The notes below the pieces were generated by a model. The model saw only the letters and a list, made by a program, of their open reading frames with translations. It had not been told where the DNA came from and ran no database searches. Positions 2,291 through 49,133 of a DNA stretch of 64,000 nucleotides are shown piece after piece. The translations under genes were made by a program, and so were the position numbers. The DNA is from Squalus acanthias (Eukaryota). Where the stretch lies: assembly GCA_030390025.1 (NCBI GenBank), contig CM059432.1:1612001-1676000 (forward strand), given 5' to 3'. Each line of letters begins with the position of its first letter. The first letter of the stretch is position 1.

Positions 2291-3601
2291 GTTTGGTCTC
2301 CCCAATGTAGAGGAGATCACATCGTGAGCAGCGAATACAGTATACTAAATTGCAAGAAGTACAAGTAAATCGCTGTTTCACCTGGAAGGAGTGTTTGGGG
2401 CCCTGGACAGTGGGAAGGGAGGAGGTAAAAGGGCAGGTGTTGCATCTCCTGTGCTGGGGGTGATAGAGGAGTGGACCAGCGTGTTGCGGAGGACGCGGTC
2501 CCTTTGGAATGCTGAAAGGGGAGGGGAAGGTGTGTTTGGTGGTGGGATCACGCTGGAGGTGGCGGAAATGGCGGAGGATGATCCGTTGAATGTGGAGGCT
2601 GGTGGGGTGAAAGGTGAGGACAAGGGGAACTCTACCGTGGTTCCGGGAGGGAGGGGCCGGGGTGAGGGCAGAAGTGCGGGAGATGGAACGGACACGGTCA
2701 AGGGCCGTGTCAACCACGGTAGAGGGGAATCCTCGGTTGAGGAAAAAGGAAGACATATCGGAAACACGAGTATGGAAGATGTCATCGTCAGAACAGATGC
2801 GGCAGAGACGGAGAAACTGGGAGAATGGAATAGAGTCCTTACAGGAGGTGGGGTGGGAGGAAGTGTAGTCCAGGTAGCTTTGGGAGTCAGTGGGCTTATA
2901 GTGAATGTTTGTCAATAGCCTATCCCCAGAGATGGAGACAGAGAAGTCGAGCAGGGAAGAGAAGAGTCGGAGATGGACCATGTGAAGGTGAGGGAAGGGT
3001 GGAAATTGGAAGCAAAGTGAATGAAATGTTCTAGTTCAGGGCGAGAGCAGGAAACTGCACCGATACAGTGATCGATGTACCGGAAAAAGAGGTGAGGGAG
3101 GGGACCCGAGTAGGACTGGAACAAAGAATGTTCCACATATCCCACGAAAAGGCAGGCATAGCTAGGGCCCATGCGGGTTCCCATAGCAACACCTTTAATT
3201 TGGAGGAAGTGAGTGGAGTCAAAGGCGAAGTTGTTCAATGTGAGAACAAGTTCAGCCAGGTGGAGGAGGGTGGAGGTGGATGGGGTCTGGTTGGGCCTCT
3301 GTTCAAGGAAGAAGCGGAGCGCCCTCAGGCCATCCTGGTGGGAAATGGAGGTGTAGAGGGATTGTAGGTCCATAGTGAAAAGGAGACGGTTGGGGCCAGG
3401 AAACTGGAAACTGTTAAAGTGGCGGAGGGCATCGGAAGAGTCGCGGATGTAGGTGGGAAGAGACTGGACAAGGGGAGAAAAAACAGAGCCGAGATAGGAA
3501 GAAATCAGTTCCGTGGGGCAAGAACAGGCTGAAAGGATGGGTCTACCAGGGCAGCCCTGTTTGTGGATCTTGGGAAAGAGGTAGAAGCGGGCTGTGCGGG
3601 G
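2291..3601 (-). mobile_element. Penelope-like element fragment (RT plus GIY-YIG endonuclease), frameshifted
   Basis: ORFs 2912-3745 and 2244-2981 carry the PLE RT motifs FYLFPKIHK..GRPI, GVAMGTRMGPSYA and FRYID, and the GIY-YIG motif NLVYCIRC..CDLLYIGET. Confidence 0.9.
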
Positions 3602-4093
3602 TCTGTACCCTCTCGTTATCGACTCTTCAACCATTGGAAACAATTTTTCTTTATTTACTCTACCTAAATCCTTCATGATTTTAAACACCTCTATCAAATC
3701 TCCTCTTAGCCTTCTCTGCTCCAAGGAGAACAACCCCAGTTGCAATTGAAATTAAATTATAAACGTTGACATCAATTACCCTTAGCTCTTTTAAATTACC
3801 TACTGTATCACAAAGGCCTTGTGGGTTATTATTGTTTCATAACATCGTGAATTCTAATTTCTTTATGATATATGTATTGTGCATGGCTGTTCCTTCTATA
3901 GTTAATTTAGTAAGGGACGTGAAGTAGGCACTGTATTTGTACAATTTTTTATTTATTTATAATGTATGCTTGGATAATTGTATGTCAGTGATATCTCAGT
4001 CAGGTAGCACAGCCCTTCAATATCAATAAGAGTCGAGTCACCTATAGGTATCCTCTGACCTTTTCTCGATTGCTCAGTTAAACAACAGGTTTG

Positions 4094-32901: not shown

Positions 32902-35900
32902 TTAGGAGGTGTGGACGAGACGGTGCGGCGGTCTGATGGGCCGGCCGGAGCGGCTCTTGTAGGACGCCGGTGGACGTGGAACGGCTGGGCGTGGAGCAGC
33001 CGGGTGAACTGGCTTGAGGGCAGGTCGGCCGCGTGGAGGTGGACGAGCTACAGGGACCTGCTCCCCGGGCTCCGAGTGTGCTGGCTTGAGTCGGTCCACC
33101 GACACTTTTTCGGTCCTGTCGCCCACTTGCAGGGTGAAAAATTTGTCCCCAGCCTGTAGCACCTTGTAGGGCCCGTCGTACGGTGGTTGAAGGGGTCCGC
33201 GGTGGGCGTCGTGCCGGACGAAAACAAACCGTGCCTGGTGCAAGCTTAGTGGGACGTGTGAGGTGGATTCGCCGTGTCAGGCAATGGGCACCGGGGCGAA
33301 ATGCAGCGCCGGTGAGGCGAAGTCGTGGCGTTGCTGGTCGGCTGACCAGAGTGTCGTGGCGGTGGGCAGGAACTCGCCGGGTACGCGCAGCGGCTGACCG
33401 TACACGAGCTCTGCTGCCGATGCGTGGAGGTCTTCTTTAACCGCGGTGCGCAGGCCGAGGACCACCCACGGAAGTCGGTCGGTCCAGGCGCCGTCTTGGA
33501 GGCTGGCTCGAAGAGATGCCTTCAAGGATCTGTGGAACCGCTCACACAGTCCGTTGGCTTGGGGGTGGTACGCTGTGGTGCGGTGAATGGTCACCCCGAG
33601 ATTGCGTGCGACGGCGGTCCAGAGTTCAGAGGTAAATTGCGGACCTCTGTCCGACGTCATGTCGGAGGGGACGCCGAACCGTGCGACCCAGGTGCTGACG
33701 AAGGCTCTGGCGATGTCGGCGGTGGTGGTAGAGGTCAGTGGAATTGCCTCAGGCCAGCGTGTGGTGCGGTCAACGATGGTCAGCAAGTGCGTGTGGCCTT
33801 GCGACGGCGGCAGGGGCCCGACGATGTCCACGTGGATGTGGTCGAATCTCCGCGAGGGGACGGTAAACTCCTCGAGGGGTGCTTTCGTGTGTTGCTGTAT
33901 CATGGCCCGTTGGCAGGCTAGGCAGGAGTTGGCCCAAGTACGCACATCCTTGCGAAGGCCGCGCCAGACAAAGCGGTTGGCTACCAATTTGATGGATGCG
34001 CGGGCGCCGGGGTGGGAGAGGTTGTGGAGAATGTCGAATACCCGGCAGCGCCAGGACGCTGGGACGACAGGCTGAGGTTGACATAGGGATATGTCGCACT
34101 TGACCGTGACTGCAGTCGGGCCACAGGCGACGTCGGCCAGGCGTAGCCCTGGTAGGTTGGTGGGTGCGGAGAGCAGATCAGGGTCGGTGATCTGGTCTGC
34201 TGCGAGTTGAGCGTAGTCGACTGCTAGGTGTGCGGCGTGGATGGCGGGGCGGGAGAGGCAGTCGGCTACCACATTGTCTCGGCCGGAGACGTGTTGGATG
34301 TCCGTGGTGAACTCGGACACTGCCGCGAGCTGGCGCTGCTGCCTGGCGGACCAGGGGTCGGTTGTCTTTGCCATTGCGAATGTCAGGGGCTTGTGGTCGA
34401 CAAACGCAGTGAAGGGGTGGCCCTCAAGCAAAAACCGGAAATGGCGGACCGCCAGGAACAGCGCGAGGAGCTCGCGGTCGAAGGTGCTGTACTTGACCTC
34501 CGGGGGGCGTAGTTGGCGACTGAAGAAGGCAAGTGGTTGCCAGGCGCCGTCGACCCACTGCTCATACACGGCGCCGACCGCGTGGTCGGAGGCGTCCGTG
34601 GTGAGCGCTACCCTGGCATTGGGCCGTGGGTGCGCGAGCAGGGTGGCGTTGGCGAGCGCGGTCTTGGTGGAATCGAAGGCGGCGGACGCATCTGCCGTCC
34701 ATTCGACCGCCATCTTGCCGCTCCTGCCCCGGAGGGCTTCATACAGGGGCCTCATGAGGGACCCCGCTTTGGGGATGAAGCGGTTATAGAAATTCACCAT
34801 CCCGAGGAACTCCTGGAGGCCTTTGATGGTGGTGGGGCGGGGAAATTGTTGGACGGCCTGCACCTTGGTGGGCAGGGGAATGGCCCCAGCATGGGTGATG
34901 TGGTGGCCGAGGAAGTCGATCTTGTCCAGGCCGAACTGGCATTTGGCTGGGCTGAGGATGAGCCCGTGGCCGCTGAGGCGCCCGAACAGGATGCGAAGGT
35001 GTTCGAGGTGTTCCTGCTTGGAGGAACTGGCTACCAGGATGTCGTCCAGGTAGACGAACAGGAACTTCAGGTCCCGAAGGACCGAGTCCATGAGCCGTTG
35101 GAATGCCTGGGCCGCGTTTTTGAGGCCGAAGGGCATTCGCAGGAACTCGAACAGGCCGAAGGGGGTGATTACGGCCGTCTTGGGGACGTCCGCGGGGTGG
35201 ACGGGGACTTGGTGGTAGCCGCGCACCAGGTCGACCTTGGAAAAGACTGAGCGGCTGGCCAGTCTAGCCGAGAAGTCCTGAATGTGCGGCACGGGGTACC
35301 GATCAGGGGTGGTGGCGTCATTGAGGCGGCGGTAATCCCCGCAGGGGCGCCAACCTCCGCCTGGTTTGGGGGCGATGTGGAGTGGGGAGGCCCAGGGACT
35401 GTTGGAGCGGCGGATGATGCCGAGCTGTTCCATGCTGGCAAACTCGGTCCGCGCGATCTCCAGTTTGGCCGGGTCCAGCCTGCGGGCGTGGGCGTACACT
35501 GGGGGGCCTGTGGTGGGGATGAAGTGTTCCACCCCGTGTTTGGCAGCCTTCGCGGAGAAGGTCGGATTGGTAAGGGCCGGGAATTCGGCCAGGAGTGCCG
35601 AGTAGTCATCTGTGGCCCGGGCGTGGCACTGTGACGCCATGTCGGCGGGTTGACGGGGGGCCATGGCGCCCAGGATGGGGGACATGGTGTTCATGTCCAC
35701 GAGGCGGTGACGAGGGATGTCTACCAGTAAGCCGTGGGCACACAGGAAATCTGCGCCGATGAGGGGGGAGAGCACCTTGGCAGTGATGAACTCCCATTGG
35801 TATCGGTGACCAGCGAGGTCGAGGGTGACTGTCCGGGTGCCATACGTCCGGATTTCCGAGCCGTTAGCAGCAGCCAGCGCCGGTCCTCGTTCGCCCTTTT

Positions 35901-36687
35901 GGATGTCGAGGGAGGAGGCCGGGATGATGCTGTGCTGAGCCCCAGTGTCGCACAGGAACCGGCGGCCGGTTTTGTCATCCGTGACGAACAGCAGGGAGCC
36001 CGCGTAGCCCATGGCCATCGCGGGGGCTGGAACGGGGGTGGACTTGAAAGAGCAGGGAGGTTTGCACCGTTGTGCCCTGGCGCCGAACCGTGCGTGGTAG
36101 TAACAGTGGCCCGGGTTAGTGGGGCGTGAAGGCCCCGTGGGCCTGGTGACAGGCCCTTGTGGCCGCGTGCTGGATGGTGAGGGGCGCGCCCAGGCATTGG
36201 CTGCCAGGTCCGGAGTGACGTCGTGGCTGGAGTGAGCGGACAGCAGCTTGTCGGTCTCATCGGCCAGGGCTTCCAGGTTCGTGAGGCCGGACGCCACGAT
36301 CGCTGGGCGGATGCTGAGAGGGAGCTGGCGGATGAACAGCGTGCGGAAGAGGGATCCGGGTGGGCTCTCGAGGTCTGACGGTGAGGCATCACCGAGGCCT
36401 GGAAGGTCGAGGAGGTGGCAGTTTCGCTGATATGCCGAGGCCGTAAATTTTTTAAGGAGCGCTGTTCTGAGATGTGCATACTTGCCTTCCTCTGGTGGGT
36501 TCTGCAGCATTGTCCAAACCTTGGAAACTGCGGCGCTACTGAGTGATGTGACGAGATAGTCGTACTTCGTCCCATCTGTGGTGATATTTCGCAGCCGGAA
36601 GCGAGATTCAGCTTGGAGAAACCAGGCTTCGGGCTGGTTTTCCCCAAACTCCGGCAGTTTCACGGAAACTGCGTTCGTGTCCGCCAT
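32902..36687 (-). CDS. Gypsy gag-pol polyprotein (Gag, protease, RT, RNase H, integrase) with an in-frame TGA at 33277-33279
   Basis: Protease LCDTGA, RT YLDD, RNase H TTDASD, integrase H-H-C-C and D-D-E (HVDIVG, SDRG, LCERF). The GPY/F module (PPYDGPYKV) continues in the same frame after the stop. Confidence 0.92.
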
Positions 36688-36712
36688 TGCAGTGCTCAGA
36701 ATACGTTCTGAG

Positions 36713-36726
36713 CGTCGGGGTCACCA
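36713..36726 (-). promoter_or_regulatory. Primer-binding site complementary to the tRNA-Trp 3' end
   Basis: TGGTGACCCCGACG starts 1 nt inside the 5' LTR boundary and matches the first 14 nt of the avian retroviral tRNA-Trp PBS. Confidence 0.85.
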
Positions 36727-38617: not shown

Positions 38618-38830
38618 ACATAAGAACATAAGAAATAGGAGCAGGAGTCGGCCATACGGCCCTTCGAGCCTGCTCCGCCATTCAGTAAGATCATGGCTGA
38701 TCTTTTACCTCACCTCCCCTTTCCTGCCCGATCCCCATATCCCTTGATTCCCCAATGCCCAAAAATCTATTGGTCTCAGTTTTGAATATACTCAACGACT
38801 GAGAATCCACAGCCCTTTGGGGTAAAGAAT
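38618..38830 (-). mobile_element. CR1 3' end
   Basis: (CATAAGAA)n tail and CR1 3' UTR. Confidence 0.8.
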
Positions 38831-38873
38831 CTGATGACGCATTAGCATATGATTACCCACACACGCTTGATTC

Positions 38874-41800
38874 TTACACACGCACACTCACACTTACACG
38901 CACACACTCACACTTACACGTGTACACTCACACGCACACGCTCACACCCCCATTTACACATGCACACTCACACTTACATGCACACACTTACACGCACACA
39001 CTCACACTTACATGCGCACACTCACACTTACATGCACACACTCACACTTACACGCGCACACTCACACTCACACGCACACACTTACACGCGCACACTCACA
39101 CTTACACGCACACACTCACACTTACACGCGCACACTCACACTTACACGCACACACTCACACTTACACGCACACACTTACACGCACACACTCACACGCACA
39201 CTCACACTTACACACCCACACTCACACCCACACACACACTCACACACTCACACACACGCTTACACGCGCACACTCACACTTACACGTGTACACTCACACG
39301 CACACGCTCACACCCCCACTTACACACACACTCACACTTACATGCACACACTTACACGCACACACTCACACTTACACGCGCACACTCACACTTACATGCA
39401 CACACTCACACTTACACGCGCACACTCACACTCACACACACACACTTACACGCGCACACTCACACTTACACGCACACACTCACACTTATATGCACACACT
39501 CACACTTACACGCGCACACTCACACTTACATGCACACACACACACTTACACGCACACACTCACACTTACACGCACACACTTACACGCACACACTCACACG
39601 CACACTCACACTTACACACCCACACTCACACACTCACACCCACACACACACTCACACACTCACACACACGCTTACACGCGCACACTCACACTTACACGTG
39701 TACACTCACACGCACACGCTCACACCCCCACTTACACACGCACACTCACACTTACATGCACACACTCACACTTACATGCACACACTCACACTTACACACA
39801 CACACTTACACGCGCACACTCACACTTACACGCACACACTCACACTTATATGCACACACTCACACTTACACGCGCACACTCACACTTACATGCACACACA
39901 CACACTTACACGCACACACTCACACTTACACGCACACACTTACACGCACACACTCACACGCACACTCACACTTACACACCCACACTCACACGCACACACT
40001 CGCACCCACACACACACACACACTCACTTACACGCGCACACTTACACGCACACACTCACCCTCACACGCACACACTTACGCACACACTCTTACATGCACA
40101 CACTCACACTTACTCACACTTACACACACACACTCACACTTACATGCACACACTCACACTTACATGCACACACTTACACGCACACACTCACACTTACATG
40201 CACACACTTACACGCACATACTCACACTTACATGCACACACTTACATGCACACACTTACAAGCACACACTTACGCTTACAAGCACACACTTACAGGCACA
40301 CACTCACACTTACAAGCACACACTTACACGCACACACGTACACTTAGACGCTCACACTTACACGTGGGCACTCACATTTACATGCGTGCGCTCACACTTA
40401 CACGCACACACTCACACTTACATGCACACACTCACACTTACATGCACACACTTACATGCACACACTCACACTTACATGCACACACTTACACACACACACT
40501 TACATGCACACACTCACACTTACATGCACACACTTACACGCACACACTCACACTTACATGCACACACTTACATGCACATACTTACATGCACACACTCGCA
40601 CTTACACGCACACACTTACACACACACTCACACGCGCGCACTCACACTTACACGCACACTCTCACACTTACACGCACGCACTTACACGCACACACTCACA
40701 CTTACACGCGCACACTCACACTTACACACACACACTCACGCTCACACGCACACACTTACACGCGCGCACTCACACTTACATGCACACACTTACACACACA
40801 CACTTACACGCACACACTCACACTTACATGCACACACTCACACTTACATGCACACACTTACACGCACACACTCACACTTACATGCACACACTTACACGCA
40901 CATACTTACACGCACACACTCACACTTACACGCGCACACTCACACTTACACACACACACTCACGCTCACACGCACACACTTACACGCACACACTCACACT
41001 TACATGCACACACTCACACTTACATGCACACACTTACACGCACACACTCACACTTACATGCACACACTTACACGCACATACTTACATGCACACACTCACA
41101 CTTACACGCACACACTTACACACACACTCACGCGCGCACTCACACTTACACGCACACTCTCACACTTACACGCACGCACTTACACGCACACACTCACACT
41201 TACACGTGCACACTCACACTTACACACACACACTCACGCTCACACGCACACACTTACACGCGCGCACTCACACTTACACTTACACGCACACACTTACACA
41301 CGCACACGTACACTTACTTGCTCACACTTACACGCGGGCACTCACATTTACATGCGTGAGCTCACACTTACACGCACACACTCACACTTACATGCACACA
41401 CTTACATGCACACACTCACACTTACATGCACACACTTACATGCACACACTCACACTTACACGCACACACTCACACTTACATGCACACACTTACATGCACA
41501 CACTCACACTTACATGCACACACTTACACGCACACACTCACACTTACATGCACACACTCACACTTACATGCATGCACTCACACTTACATGCACACACTCA
41601 CACTTACATGCACACACTTACATGCACACACTCACACTTACACGCGCACACTCACACTTACACGCACACACTTACACACACACTCACGTGCGCACTCACA
41701 CTTACACGCGCACTCTCACACTTACACGCTCACACTTACTCGCACACACTCACGCTTACTCGCGCACACTCACACTTACATGCGCACACTCACACTTATA

Positions 41801-41902
41801 TGCGCACGTGCTCATTACACACACACACTTGCACACACTTACACATGCACACTTACACATGCAGACTTGCACACACACTTGCACGCGCACTCACTCACAC
41901 AC
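38874..41902. repeat. About 3-kb compound CA-rich simple repeat (CACACTTACA / YGCACACACT modules)
   Basis: Directly visible low-complexity tandem array. Confidence 0.97.
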
Positions 41903-42864
41903 GATTGCCTTGCTGGTCTGCAGCCTTGGATTTACTGTTAAATTAATCTTTGTTTCTATTCATCATGAACTTTGATGAAATATGGCAAAATTTGCATAAT
42001 CAATTCATAGACTATGATAAATCATATTTAGAAATCATCTATTAAACTTAGATGAGGTAAAATTCTTTAAAATCCAATTATCTACAAATATGCAAAAAAC
42101 AGAAATATAAATTAAATGTGAATTATTGAATATCAAAACGCGTGGCATTTGAAAGTCTCATTCATAGCCTTATGCAAGATCTTAAAATTAAATTAATGAA
42201 TCATTGTTTCGCTCTTTCATTTCATTTTGTATGACTCCAGTTTCTTTCTATTTGATTTTCAATTTCTATCTTTTAAAAAAAAAACCCGAGAGAAACTATG
42301 AGTGACTATTCCCTGCATTCCCCAACTGGCTTTCATTTATTTTTGATATTTAAATTGTGCACAGACTTTCACCTTGGGGACCCAGACTTAAAGCAAGAGC
42401 AGGCGGATTTAATGAAGGCCTGCTCCCTGTGACATCTCTTAAAGGCACTGAGTGAAATCGGTTTCCACAAACTCATTCCGATTCCCGGTGGGCCCAAGCC
42501 GACAGTGCAAAAAAAAAACAGTCCTTGGGTTGATGCTAATTCCGCACTGATTTGGCAATCTCTCTCAGACGAGGCACAGGGATAGACAGTGTCAGAAATA
42601 GAACAATCACACTAGTGCCGCAGCGAGGGCTCTCTGGAGAACATAGTTTCGGTATGTTGTCTGGTTAGTACAGATACAGCAATTCATTATTTGTGTCTAA
42701 GTAGTGCCGCCACTGTCCTACAAATGCTTCAAGTATGTACAAAGCGGAGAAACTGTGCCACTCTTGAGTCTCGTCTCCTCTCTTTGATAAAAAGTATTGT
42801 ATACATTAGCGAGGTGGAAATCCTTGGCCGTTCTGGCAGAATGGCATCCTAACTTCAGCAGAGG

Positions 42865-46669: not shown

Positions 46670-47125
46670 GTGTCAGCTGTGGCTCAGTGGGTAGCACTCT
46701 CGCCTCTGAGGCCAAAGGTTGTGGGTTCAAATCCCACTCCAGGGACTTGAGCACAAAAATCCAGGCTGACACTCCCAGTGCAGTGCTGAGGGAGTGCTGC
46801 ACTGTCGGAGGTGCCGTCTTTCAGATGAGATGTTAAACTGAGGCCCCGTCTGCTCTCTCAGGTGGATGTAAAAGATTCCATGGCCACTGTTTCGAAGAAG
46901 AGCAGGGGCGTTCTCCCCGGTGTCCTGGGCAATATTTATCTCTCAACAAATATCGCTAAAGTCAGATACATTGCTGTTTGTGGGAGCTTGCTGTGCGCAA
47001 ATTGTCTGCTGCGTTTCCTACATTACAAAAGTGACTACACTTCAAAAAGTACTTCATTGGCTGTAAAGCGCTGTGGGACATCCTGAGGTCGTGAAAGGCG
47101 CTATAGAAATGCAAGTCTTTCTTTT
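46670..47125 (+). mobile_element. Near full-length Deu-domain tRNA-derived SINE (SacSINE1-like)
   Basis: A box tggctcagtggg, B box gggttcaaatccc, Deu-like core gtgctgcactgtcggaggtgccgtctttc…, and L2-like tail aaaggcgctatagaaatgcaagtcttt. Confidence 0.8.
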
Positions 47126-47960
47126 CAGTATCTGTAGAATATGTACATTTTTTATGAGGTCAATCACTTTGATGGCTGCTGCACCATACCTGAGGCGAGA
47201 GATACTGTGCGATGAATATAACTAATGTAAAATGTTCCTGACTCTAGATTATGAGGAGAGGTCACATAAACTAGGCTTGTATTTCCTGGAATATTGAAGG
47301 TTAAGGGGTGATTTGATTGGGGTTTTTAGGATTTTGCAAGGAATTGATGGGGTAGATGGAGAGAAATTTTTTCCGCTGGTGGGGGGAGTCTAGGACAAGG
47401 GGACAGAACCTTAAAATCAGAGCCAGGTCATTCAGGAGAGAAGTTAGGAAACACTTCTTCACACAAAGGGTGGTAGGAGTGTGGAATTCTCTCCCACAAA
47501 GAGCGTAGATGCTGGGGCTCAATTAATAATTTAAATCGGAGATGGATTGATTTTGCTAGACAAGGGTATTAAAAGGATATGGAGCCAACATAAGATCATA
47601 AGAAACAGGAGCAGGAGTCGGCCAATCGGCCCCTCGAGCCTGCTCCGCCATTCAATAAGATCATGGCTGATCCAATCTTGTCCTCAACACCACTTTCCCG
47701 CTCTCTCCCCAGACCCCTTGACTCCCCTGTAGCTCAAATCTCTGTCTATCTCAGCCTTGAATATATTCAGTGACTCCGCCTCCACAGCTCTCTGAGGTAA
47801 AGAATTCCAAAGATTCACGACCCTCTGAGAGAAGAAATTCCTCATCATCTCCGTCTTAAATGGGCGACCCCTTATCCTGAAACTATGCCCCTAGTTCTAG
47901 ATTCCCCCACTAGGGGAAACATCCTCTCAGCATCTACCCTGTCAATCCCCCTCAGAATCT

Positions 47961-47999
47961 GAGTTCTGACGAAAGGTCATCGACCTGTAACGTTAACTC
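47961..47999 (+). ncRNA. Minimal type I hammerhead ribozyme motif (core variant GTAA in place of GAAA)
   Basis: Stem I GAGTT/AACTC, CUGANGA box, stem II AGGTC/GACCT, and palindromic AACGTT in place of stem III. Confidence 0.6.
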
Positions 48000-48096
48000 T
48001 GTTTCTCTCTCCACAGATGCTGCCTGACCTGCTGAGTATTTCCAGCATTTTCTGTTTTTATTTCAGATTTCCAGCATCCGCAGTATTTTGCTTTTG
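47961..48096 (+). mobile_element. Short Penelope-type pseudo-LTR insert containing a minimal hammerhead ribozyme motif
   Basis: Perfect 15-bp TSD tccccctcagaatct (47946-47960, 48097-48111). Begins GAGTT-CTGACGA-A-AGGTC atc GACCT-GTAA-CG-TT-AACTC. Confidence 0.75.
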
Positions 48097-48728
48097 TCCC
48101 CCTCAGAATCTTATATGTTTCAATAAGATCACCTCTCATTCTTCTAAACTCCAATGAGTATAGGCCCAACCTGCTCAACCTTTCCTCATATGTCAACCCC
48201 TTCATCCCAGGAATCAACCGAGTGAACCTTCTCTGAACTGCCTCCAATGCAAGTATATCCTTCCTTAAAAATGGAGACCACAACTGTACGCAGTACTCCA
48301 GGTGCGGTCTCACCAGCACGGGTGGATGGAGTTAGGATACAGATCAGATCAGGATAATGATCTCATTGAATGGCGGGACAGGCTCGAGGGGCTGACTGGC
48401 CTCCTCCTGCTCCTATGGTCATTCCTATGGTCCTATGAGCCTGGATCCTGTTGTATTCCTTGGATGTTATGAAAAATGCTTCACCTTAACATTTCTGCCG
48501 AGGTGACGCTGCATGGAATTCCTGTATGCTGGCTCCCCCAGGTGGTTTTATAATGTAATATTACTACAGGAAAAAACTTTTGCTAACTGACAATGTCGAT
48601 TTCATTTCTAACTTTTCTATCCAACAGGAAGAAAAAAAAACACCTCAAAATTAAATATATATTTGCATTTACCTTTCTTAGAAGTGTTGGTGGATTTGAT
48701 TTGATTTGATTCGACTGTTGTGCAGATA

Positions 48729-49133
48729 ATCATAGAATCATAGAAATTTACGGCACAGAAGGAGGCCATTCGGCCCATCGTGTCCGTGCCGGCTGAAAAA
48801 GAGTTCTCCAGCCTAATCACACTTTCCAGCTCTTGGTCCGTAGCCCTGCAGGTTACAGCACTTCAAGTGCATATCCAAGTACTTTTTAAATGTGATGAGG
48901 GTTTCTGCCTCTCCCACCCTTTCAGGCAGTGAGTTCCAGACCCCCACCGCCCTCTGGGTGAAAAAAGTTCTCCTCAACTCCCCTCTAATCCTTCAACCAA
49001 TTACTTTAAATCTCTGCCCCCTGGTTATTGACCTCTCTGCTAAGGGAAATAGGTCCTTCCTATCCACTCTATCTCGGTCCCTCATAATTTTATACACCTC
49101 AATTAAATCTCCCCTCAGCCTCCTCTGTTCCAA
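48729..49133 (-). mobile_element. CR1 3' fragment
   Basis: (ATCATAGA)n tail and LRGDLIEVYK motif. Confidence 0.8.

What the first reader, a model, noticed from the sequence alone, without database searches (positions are those of the whole stretch)
47946..48111. 136-bp mobile unit with a minimal hammerhead ribozyme and a 15-bp TSD
Seen: a 136-bp non-coding insert (47961-48096) flanked by a perfect 15-bp duplication inside a CR1. Its first ~40 nt read GAGTT CTGACGA A AGGTC atc GACCT GTAA CG TT AACTC, followed by two strong splice acceptors (tttctctctccacAG, tttttatttcAG). Established: Penelope-like element pseudo-LTRs carry minimal type I hammerheads with a palindromic stem III that can cleave as dimers. 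Inference: this is a solo pLTR or retrozyme-like mini-element mobilised by a Penelope RT such as the one at 2291-3601. This copy has GTAA for GAAA and is probably inactive, but the family may be self-cleaving.
Basis: partly seen in the sequence, partly recalled or inferred. Interest (0 to 1): 0.7.

Follow-up and report, generated by a model that had tools for sequence, protein, structure and literature searches.

The report
Shark-type Penelope retroelement terminal stub
This 136-base insert is the tail end of a very common 3.2-kb Penelope-like jumping gene, whose family carries a known tiny hammerhead ribozyme motif that is mutated in this copy; it is ordinary, except that many such stubs begin at one spot that likely marks the start of the element's RNA.

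Summary
The insert, 15-bp TSD and CR1 host are real. It is not a separate mini-element. It is the terminal repeat (pLTR) end of a 3.2-kb Penelope-like element (PLE) with RT, a Neptune-type Cys linker and GIY-YIG; the unit sits at both ends of 15 of 20 long loci fetched. The RT fragment at 2291-3602 is 90-92% identical to those elements. The family core is intact: 14,332 exact GAAA copies against 28 GTAA, so this copy carries a sporadic mutation. The stretch is not simply non-coding (it opens the element's 1004-codon frame), and the two 'acceptors' are mostly absent from intact elements. Copies end at about +103 or +136, the known PLE 'tail'. Their 5' ends pile up at the hammerhead's first arm (20 of 36 direct copies), not at the predicted cut site. 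The pile-up lies on a TATA-like/Initiator-like motif, so the stubs are likely run-off cDNAs from uncut RNA; no cap-G signature was found. Cleavage is untested. The scan reported the same picture earlier on other shark-type DNA and elsewhere in this genome. Known kind, low interest.

The parts
47946..47960 (+). Left copy of the 15-bp target-site duplication
   Evidence: empty-site alignment to other CR1 copies
47961..47961 (+). Extra G, neither in the duplication nor the family base (C); likely an untemplated junction base
   Evidence: C in 19 of 27 copies, G in none; one search shows no G bias among such single bases
47962..48096 (+). Terminal pLTR end of a 3.2-kb Neptune-type PLE (unit positions 2-136); in full elements also the start of the long reading frame
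   Evidence: 89-95% identical to both terminal repeats of five full elements
47962..47998 (+). Minimal type I hammerhead motif: stem I 47962-47965/47995-47998, core CTGACGA 47966-47972, extra A 47973, stem II 47974-47978/47982-47986, G-T-A 47987-47989, ACGT palindrome 47990-47993, predicted cut 3' of 47994
   Evidence: sequence; per-position counts in 42 copies; descriptor scan; architecture as in PMC4209133
47988..47988 (+). Sporadic A-to-T change in the GAAA core (hammerhead A13), likely inactivating
   Evidence: 28 GTAA against 14,332 GAAA exact copies, with both position-14 variants among the 28; loss of activity is recalled knowledge, not tested
48064..48096 (+). Optional ~34-nt 'tail' between the two preferred 3' ends (about +103 and +136)
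   Evidence: 48 of 100 copies end at 96-115, 52 at 128-139, none between; matches PMC11167929 and PMC8557442
48097..48111 (+). Right copy of the target-site duplication
47590..48318 (-).
   Evidence: the empty site aligns at 78-92% to the 12 repeats shown and translates in pieces to a LINE-like C-terminus
2291..3602 (-). Broken internal RT fragment of the same PLE family, running into the start of the endonuclease region; no terminal repeat beside it
   Evidence: 90-92% identity to five full elements; no second unit in the window

Best explanation
The insert is the last 136 bases of a 3.2-kb Neptune-type Penelope-like retroelement, sitting in a CR1 between 15-bp duplications, and it was likely made when the element's reverse transcriptase started at the outer of two start sites and ran off the 5' end of an uncut element RNA. 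Shown: family membership, full elements with the unit at both ends, two 3' ends, a 5' pile-up at positions 0-7, intact GAAA in the family. Inferred: the GIY-YIG endonuclease nicks the target about 10-17 bp apart; the upstream repeat supplies a promoter (TTAAA about 30 nt upstream, Initiator-like CCAGTTC with the A at unit position 2); RT primes at about +103 or +136 on the 5' leader, copies through the uncut hammerhead, and the cDNA end joins the second nick by 1-4 nt of microhomology. Such stubs would lack the upstream promoter and be dead ends. The family hammerhead would need a second copy, pairing through ACGT, or the element's protein in order to fold; this copy later lost A13 and is likely inactive.
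For: Unit at both ends of 15 of 20 fetched long loci, 13 with 998-1004-codon frames. RVT_1 E 2.6e-5 and GIY-YIG E 4.2e-4 in Pfam, both under the curated cut-offs; C-x4-C-xx-C linker visible in the protein, the Neptune/Nematis mark in PMC8557442. 3' ends bimodal in 100 of 100 sampled copies; 21 of 22 scorable inverted pairs (18 of 19 distinct insertions) have one long and one short arm, as expected from two RT start sites (PMC11167929). 5' ends: 20 of the 36 direct copies that end between -99 and +50 fall in 0..7 (binomial p 1e-16, window chosen after seeing the data). 12 of 26 such direct copies are bounded by duplications of 10 bp or more, against 12 of 650 mismatched flank pairs. Genome-wide estimate of direct junctions behind a purine: about 3.2% of copies at position 2, about 0.2-0.3% at the cut site (position 35), roughly 0.1% at control position 27. 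A TATA plus Inr-like pair is described in a rotifer PLE pLTR (PMC3846280). In vitro, unprocessed RNA is the dominant template of the anole PLE.
Against: No cap-derived G: a single untemplated base was G in 1 of 30, A in 1 of 30 and T in 2 of 30 sampled loci, and the genome-wide G excess (764 G, 519 A, 469 T) comes largely from inverted junctions (13 of 30). The TTAAA and Inr-like motifs are short and no more conserved than neighbouring bases within the older lineage. No RNA 5' ends could be mapped: all 8 runs laid were contigs. The pile-up coincides with stem I and follows a U-rich tract, so stalling or microhomology would also explain it. About 40% of copies extend 100 bp or more upstream and need a longer template.
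Confidence: 0.6

Rival explanations
1. Same element, different cause of the 5' boundary: RT copies a long or circular RNA and tends to stall or let go just after passing the hammerhead helices, before the U-rich tract; microhomology, including stem I complementarity in inverted copies, fixes the junction at positions 2-5.
For: The boundary is the 5' arm of stem I. Many direct junctions share A, AG or AGT with the duplication, and several inverted junctions use the AGTT/AACT complementarity. No cap-G. Upstream repeats of full elements are 95-100% identical to the downstream ones and vary from 165 to 2614 bp, so long templates are read through this point.
Against: Stalling is expected on entering a helix (positions 35-38 or 26), where direct junctions are rare, not after leaving it. 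TATA-like and Inr-like motifs lie at textbook spacing around position 2 in two diverged lineages.
Confidence: 0.27
2. The 136-bp unit is a self-propagating non-autonomous element (retrozyme- or SINE-like) that is transcribed, self-cleaved and circularised on its own and mobilised in trans by the PLE protein.
For: Unit-length copies with duplications recur by the thousand. Retrozymes are proposed to derive from PLE pLTRs (bioRxiv 10.64898/2026.07.22.740005).
Against: No head-to-tail arrays of the unit in the 60 loci, whereas tandem repeats define non-LTR retrozymes. Short copies carry the same lineage variants as long ones. Their ends are the parent's RT start sites and position 2, not the cut site. 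The GTAA form is not a lineage.
Confidence: 0.06
3. The unit is a solo repeat left by recombination between the two pLTRs of a full element.
For: It would leave one repeat between target duplications, as seen.
Against: None of the 15 upstream repeats examined starts at position 2; the shortest starts about 27 nt upstream and most hundreds upstream, so recombination would not give the pile-up. Inverted short pairs (28 of 100 copies) cannot arise this way.
Confidence: 0.05

Closest known systems
Minimal type I hammerheads in pLTRs of metazoan PLEs (Cervera and de la Pena 2014, PMC4209133; parts 1-2 of 4 read)
   Same: [quoted passage not shown]
   Different: The first stem II pair is A-U or G-U here, not the highly conserved G10.1-C11.1; stem II is 5 bp; this copy has U at A13.
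Poseidon element of the green anole, PAc (Frangieh et al. 2024, PMC11167929; parts 1-2 of 4 read)
   Same: Hammerhead overlapping the ORF start, two RT start sites about 110 nt further on that define the tail, AT-rich targets, unprocessed RNA as main template.
   Different: This element has the Cys linker of the Neptune/Nematis type; a 5' pile-up of genomic copies at stem I is not mentioned in the parts read.
Neptune-clade EN+ PLEs and their insertion structure (PMC8557442, PMC3846280; passages read)
   Same: RT, CX2-5CxxC linker, C-terminal GIY-YIG; partial tandems, inverted 5'-truncated copy, 30-40-bp tail at one end, TSDs, TATA and Inr-like motifs in the pLTR, solo pLTRs.
   Different: Clade not confirmed by a tree here (Nematis shares the linker); very high copy number.
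Non-LTR retrozymes (PMC7229834, passages; bioRxiv 10.64898/2026.07.22.740005, part 1 of 5 and passages)
   Same: Short, type I hammerhead-bearing, PLE-related.
   Different: Retrozymes are tandem repeats, mostly with canonical hammerheads, expressed as circles; this unit is dispersed, single or inverted, and continuous with the parent element.

Membership tests
EN+ Penelope-like element | Single ORF with RT and C-terminal GIY-YIG endonuclease in the parent | tested here: met
   (Pfam hits significant but under the gathering scores); YIGETKR and RFAEH motifs visible
EN+ Penelope-like element | Partial tandem forming pLTRs around the ORF | tested here: met
   15 of 20 loci hold the unit at both ends; repeats 95-100% identical, 165-2614 bp
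EN+ Penelope-like element | Optional 30-40-bp tail and inverted 5'-truncated partners | tested here: met
Neptune clade | CX2-5CxxC linker between RT and EN | tested here: met
   definition (shared with Nematis)
Neptune clade | RT phylogeny groups with Neptune | not tested
   no named PLE reference proteins were fetched
Minimal type I hammerhead (family) | CUGANGA and GAAA cores, NUH triplet, stems I and II, palindrome for a dimeric stem III | tested here: met
Minimal type I hammerhead (family) | Covariation in the stems | tested here: inconclusive
   Within the family only a one-sided G-U/A-U change at the first stem II pair; a second family in the same loci keeps the same fold with wholly different stems and palindrome
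Minimal type I hammerhead (family) | Self-cleavage as dimer or with protein help | not testable with these tools
   No footprint at the cut site in DNA copies; RNA runs were contigs only
Minimal type I hammerhead (this copy) | Intact GAAA core | tested here: not met
   T at 47988
Non-LTR retrozyme | Tandem repeats of a hammerhead-bearing unit | tested here: not met
   single copy in the window; no arrays of the unit in the 60 loci
Non-LTR retrozyme | Unit-length circular RNA | not testable with these tools
   no raw reads offered
Rfam hammerhead families | Covariance-model match | tested here: not met
   none among 7 matches at E up to 10 in 47000-49000; only the mutated copy was scanned

The most novel reading that the evidence does not exclude
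The thousands of 100- and 136-bp stubs are a genomic record of the PLE cycle in vivo: RT primes internally on the 5' leader of a promoter-driven RNA whose hammerhead has not cut, runs off at a TATA/Inr start lying at the ribozyme's first base, and in two-armed insertions uses a different start site for each target nick. This would map a vertebrate Neptune promoter from DNA alone and show that cleavage is not needed to make insertions.
Probability: 0.5. Interest if true: 0.42.

Novelty: new member of a known kind. Interest (0 to 1): 0.2.

Why it matters
The insert itself is one dead copy among tens of thousands and matters little. The family is a usable natural data set on an open point, what PLE hammerheads do: copy ends mark the two RT start sites and a 5' limit upstream of the cut site, which agrees with the one in vitro study that uncut RNA is the template. 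Young elements with long open frames and near-identical repeats exist in this genome, so the predicted start site and the cleavage can be tested directly.

Tried and rejected
Rfam scan: no hammerhead. GTAA as a mobile variant lineage: rejected, 28 of 14,360 (0.19%), split 15/13 between the two position-14 variants. Cap-derived G at the 5' junction: not supported. Footprint of in vivo cleavage at position 35: not found; of 30 sampled loci 18 were longer copies with a point change (6 of them a derived repeat), 5 inverted, 2 local duplications, 5 direct with no duplication found, 2 of these the same derived repeat. NCBIfam and PDB sequence searches of the ORF gave nothing. Literature: 'hammerhead ribozyme + Penelope + shark' and 'Penelope + shark + genome + Neptune' each returned one listing that I did not open and that is not about this family by its title; subscription papers, Repbase/Dfam and supplements were not seen, so the family may already be catalogued. 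Look-ups of earlier findings by sequence and by place were empty.

Full report
Observation. The window holds a 136-bp insert at 47961-48096 between two identical 15-mers. With the insert and one 15-mer removed, the site aligns across the junction with 29 other hits of the same LINE-like repeat, so this is a true insertion with a target-site duplication. Rfam finds no hammerhead. ViennaRNA folds the start as an extended hairpin in which the core pairs with positions 31-35, so a monomer is not predicted to take the hammerhead fold.

What it belongs to. The best 30 genomic matches are 94-100% identical, and many continue upstream by tens to hundreds of bases; a long copy translates into a GIY-YIG endonuclease C-terminus. 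Searching with the window's RT fragment gave 150 scored matches out of 26,124 candidates, several in 1004-codon open frames. I fetched 20 of them, chosen for long frames or closeness to the window's RT. In 15 the unit lies at both ends about 3.2 kb apart; 13 have frames of 998-1004 codons. The protein has RT and GIY-YIG Pfam matches below the curated cut-offs and a C-x4-C-xx-C linker, the Neptune/Nematis mark (PMC8557442, passages). Upstream and downstream repeats are 95-100% identical and 165-2614 bp long, the partial tandem typical of PLEs. The insert is 89-95% identical to these repeats and the window's fragment at 2291-3602 is 90-92% identical to the same elements. The host looks like a cartilaginous fish; that label comes from recall and from earlier scan notes, not from a test.

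The hammerhead. Exact 32-mers number 14,332 with GAAA and 28 with GTAA; the 28 include both position-14 variants, so the change arose repeatedly as a point mutation. In 42 copies selected on downstream sequence only, every core position except N7 holds the canonical base in at least 40. Stem I is 4 bp, stem II 5 bp with an A-U or G-U first pair, and ACGT stands in place of stem III. This is the min-HHR of PMC4209133, apart from the missing G10.1-C11.1 pair. A second family in the same loci keeps the same architecture with different stems and the palindrome AGCT, which supports the fold across families. That a change at A13 abolishes cleavage is recalled knowledge. That min-HHRs cleave weakly and only as dimers or trimers is from PMC4209133; that the anole one needs protein is from PMC11167929. 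The often-cited paper on dimeric cleavage (Lunse et al. 2017) I did not see; its title phrase turned up in 10 listings.

'Non-coding' and 'acceptors'. In full elements the unit is the start of the long frame; the youngest lineage has an ATG inside the core at positions 9-11 and all have one at 57-59. The true start codon is unknown. The first acceptor-like AG is lost in 13 of 14 matched upstream repeats and the second in 10 of 14, so neither is needed by intact elements.

Ends of copies. I took the first 100 listed of 10,666 exact matches to positions 51-94, all on contig 1; three inverted insertions were sampled twice and one locus had only 300 bp of upstream flank. 3' ends fall at 96-115 (48) or 128-139 (52): the PLE tail, equated with two RT start sites in PMC11167929. 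28 of 100 have an adjacent inverted partner; 6 were dropped because the partner's end was not in either class; 21 of the other 22 pair a long with a short arm (18 of 19 distinct). 5' ends: 40 lie 100 bp or more upstream, none at -99 to -50, 29 at 0 to +7, 3 at 31-40. Among the 72 direct copies, 20 of the 36 ending between -99 and +50 fall in 0..7 (window chosen afterwards; boundaries from local alignment are good to a few bases, and at least one copy, L165, is an interrupted longer copy). Duplications of 10 bp or more bound 12 of 26 such direct copies against 12 of 650 control pairs. Genome-wide counts scaled by 30-locus samples give direct junctions behind a purine in about 736 of 22,968 copies at position 2, 84-140 of 42,336 at the cut site and about 37 at control position 27, for which no denominator was searched.

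Mechanism. Position 2 is the A of an Initiator-like CCAGTTC, with TTAAA about 30 nt upstream in two diverged lineages; these motif names are recalled, and a TATA/Inr pair is described for a rotifer pLTR (PMC3846280, passages). The simplest reading is run-off from the 5' end of an uncut transcript. Against it, there is no cap-G signature, the motifs are short, and stem I microhomology shapes many junctions. RNA runs were contigs only and could not show starts or cuts. Long copies and near-identical partial tandems need a longer or circular template, as PMC4209133 proposes; nothing here shows that the hammerhead makes it.

Novelty. Every structural feature is described for PLEs. The 5' pile-up was not in the passages I read or in seven literature searches, which miss most subscription papers and repeat databases. 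I noted the run-off idea before opening earlier findings; these report the same reading for other shark-type genomes and for this genome, as unchecked notes. Two of them see hints of cleavage in vivo; my counts for this family show no pile-up at the cut site. Verdict: a new member of a known kind, a dead stub with a sporadic core mutation; interest 0.2.

Noticed in passing
L234:1111 (-), L044:1819 (+), L119:133 (-), L303:851 (+): A second min-hammerhead family in this genome with stem I TCAC/GTGA, stem II GGAGC/GCTCC (canonical G10.1-C11.1) and palindrome AGCT; often in inverted pairs.
   Followed up: partly
L284, L285, L292, L293, L296-L298, L300, L307 (around position 1500): A derived repeat built from a fold-back piece of this PLE end, with a shared foreign 3' extension after unit position 95; it seems to have multiplied as part of another element.
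   Followed up: no
L101-L111: Young lineage with 1004-codon open frames, an ATG inside the hammerhead core, and in several copies a GUC cleavage triplet that also strengthens the alternative non-catalytic hairpin.
   Followed up: partly
unit positions -14 to +3 in long copies, e.g. L014, L017: A branch-point-like CTAAC, pyrimidine tract and CAG end right at the 5' arm of stem I in the older lineage, recalling the D. virilis intron whose 3' end maps to helix I; no donor or spliced joint was found.
   Followed up: partly
window 33277-36720 (-): 1147-codon open frame of a gypsy-type LTR retrotransposon with RT, RNase H and integrase domains.
   Followed up: no
window 38803-41975 (+): Long frames open in several registers (up to 1034 codons) with no Pfam match for the longest; likely a low-complexity or tandem repeat.
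   Followed up: no
L191, L244, L245: Three separate stubs sit in the same target motif of another repeat with the same 13-bp duplication, suggesting a preferred site or later duplication.
   Followed up: no
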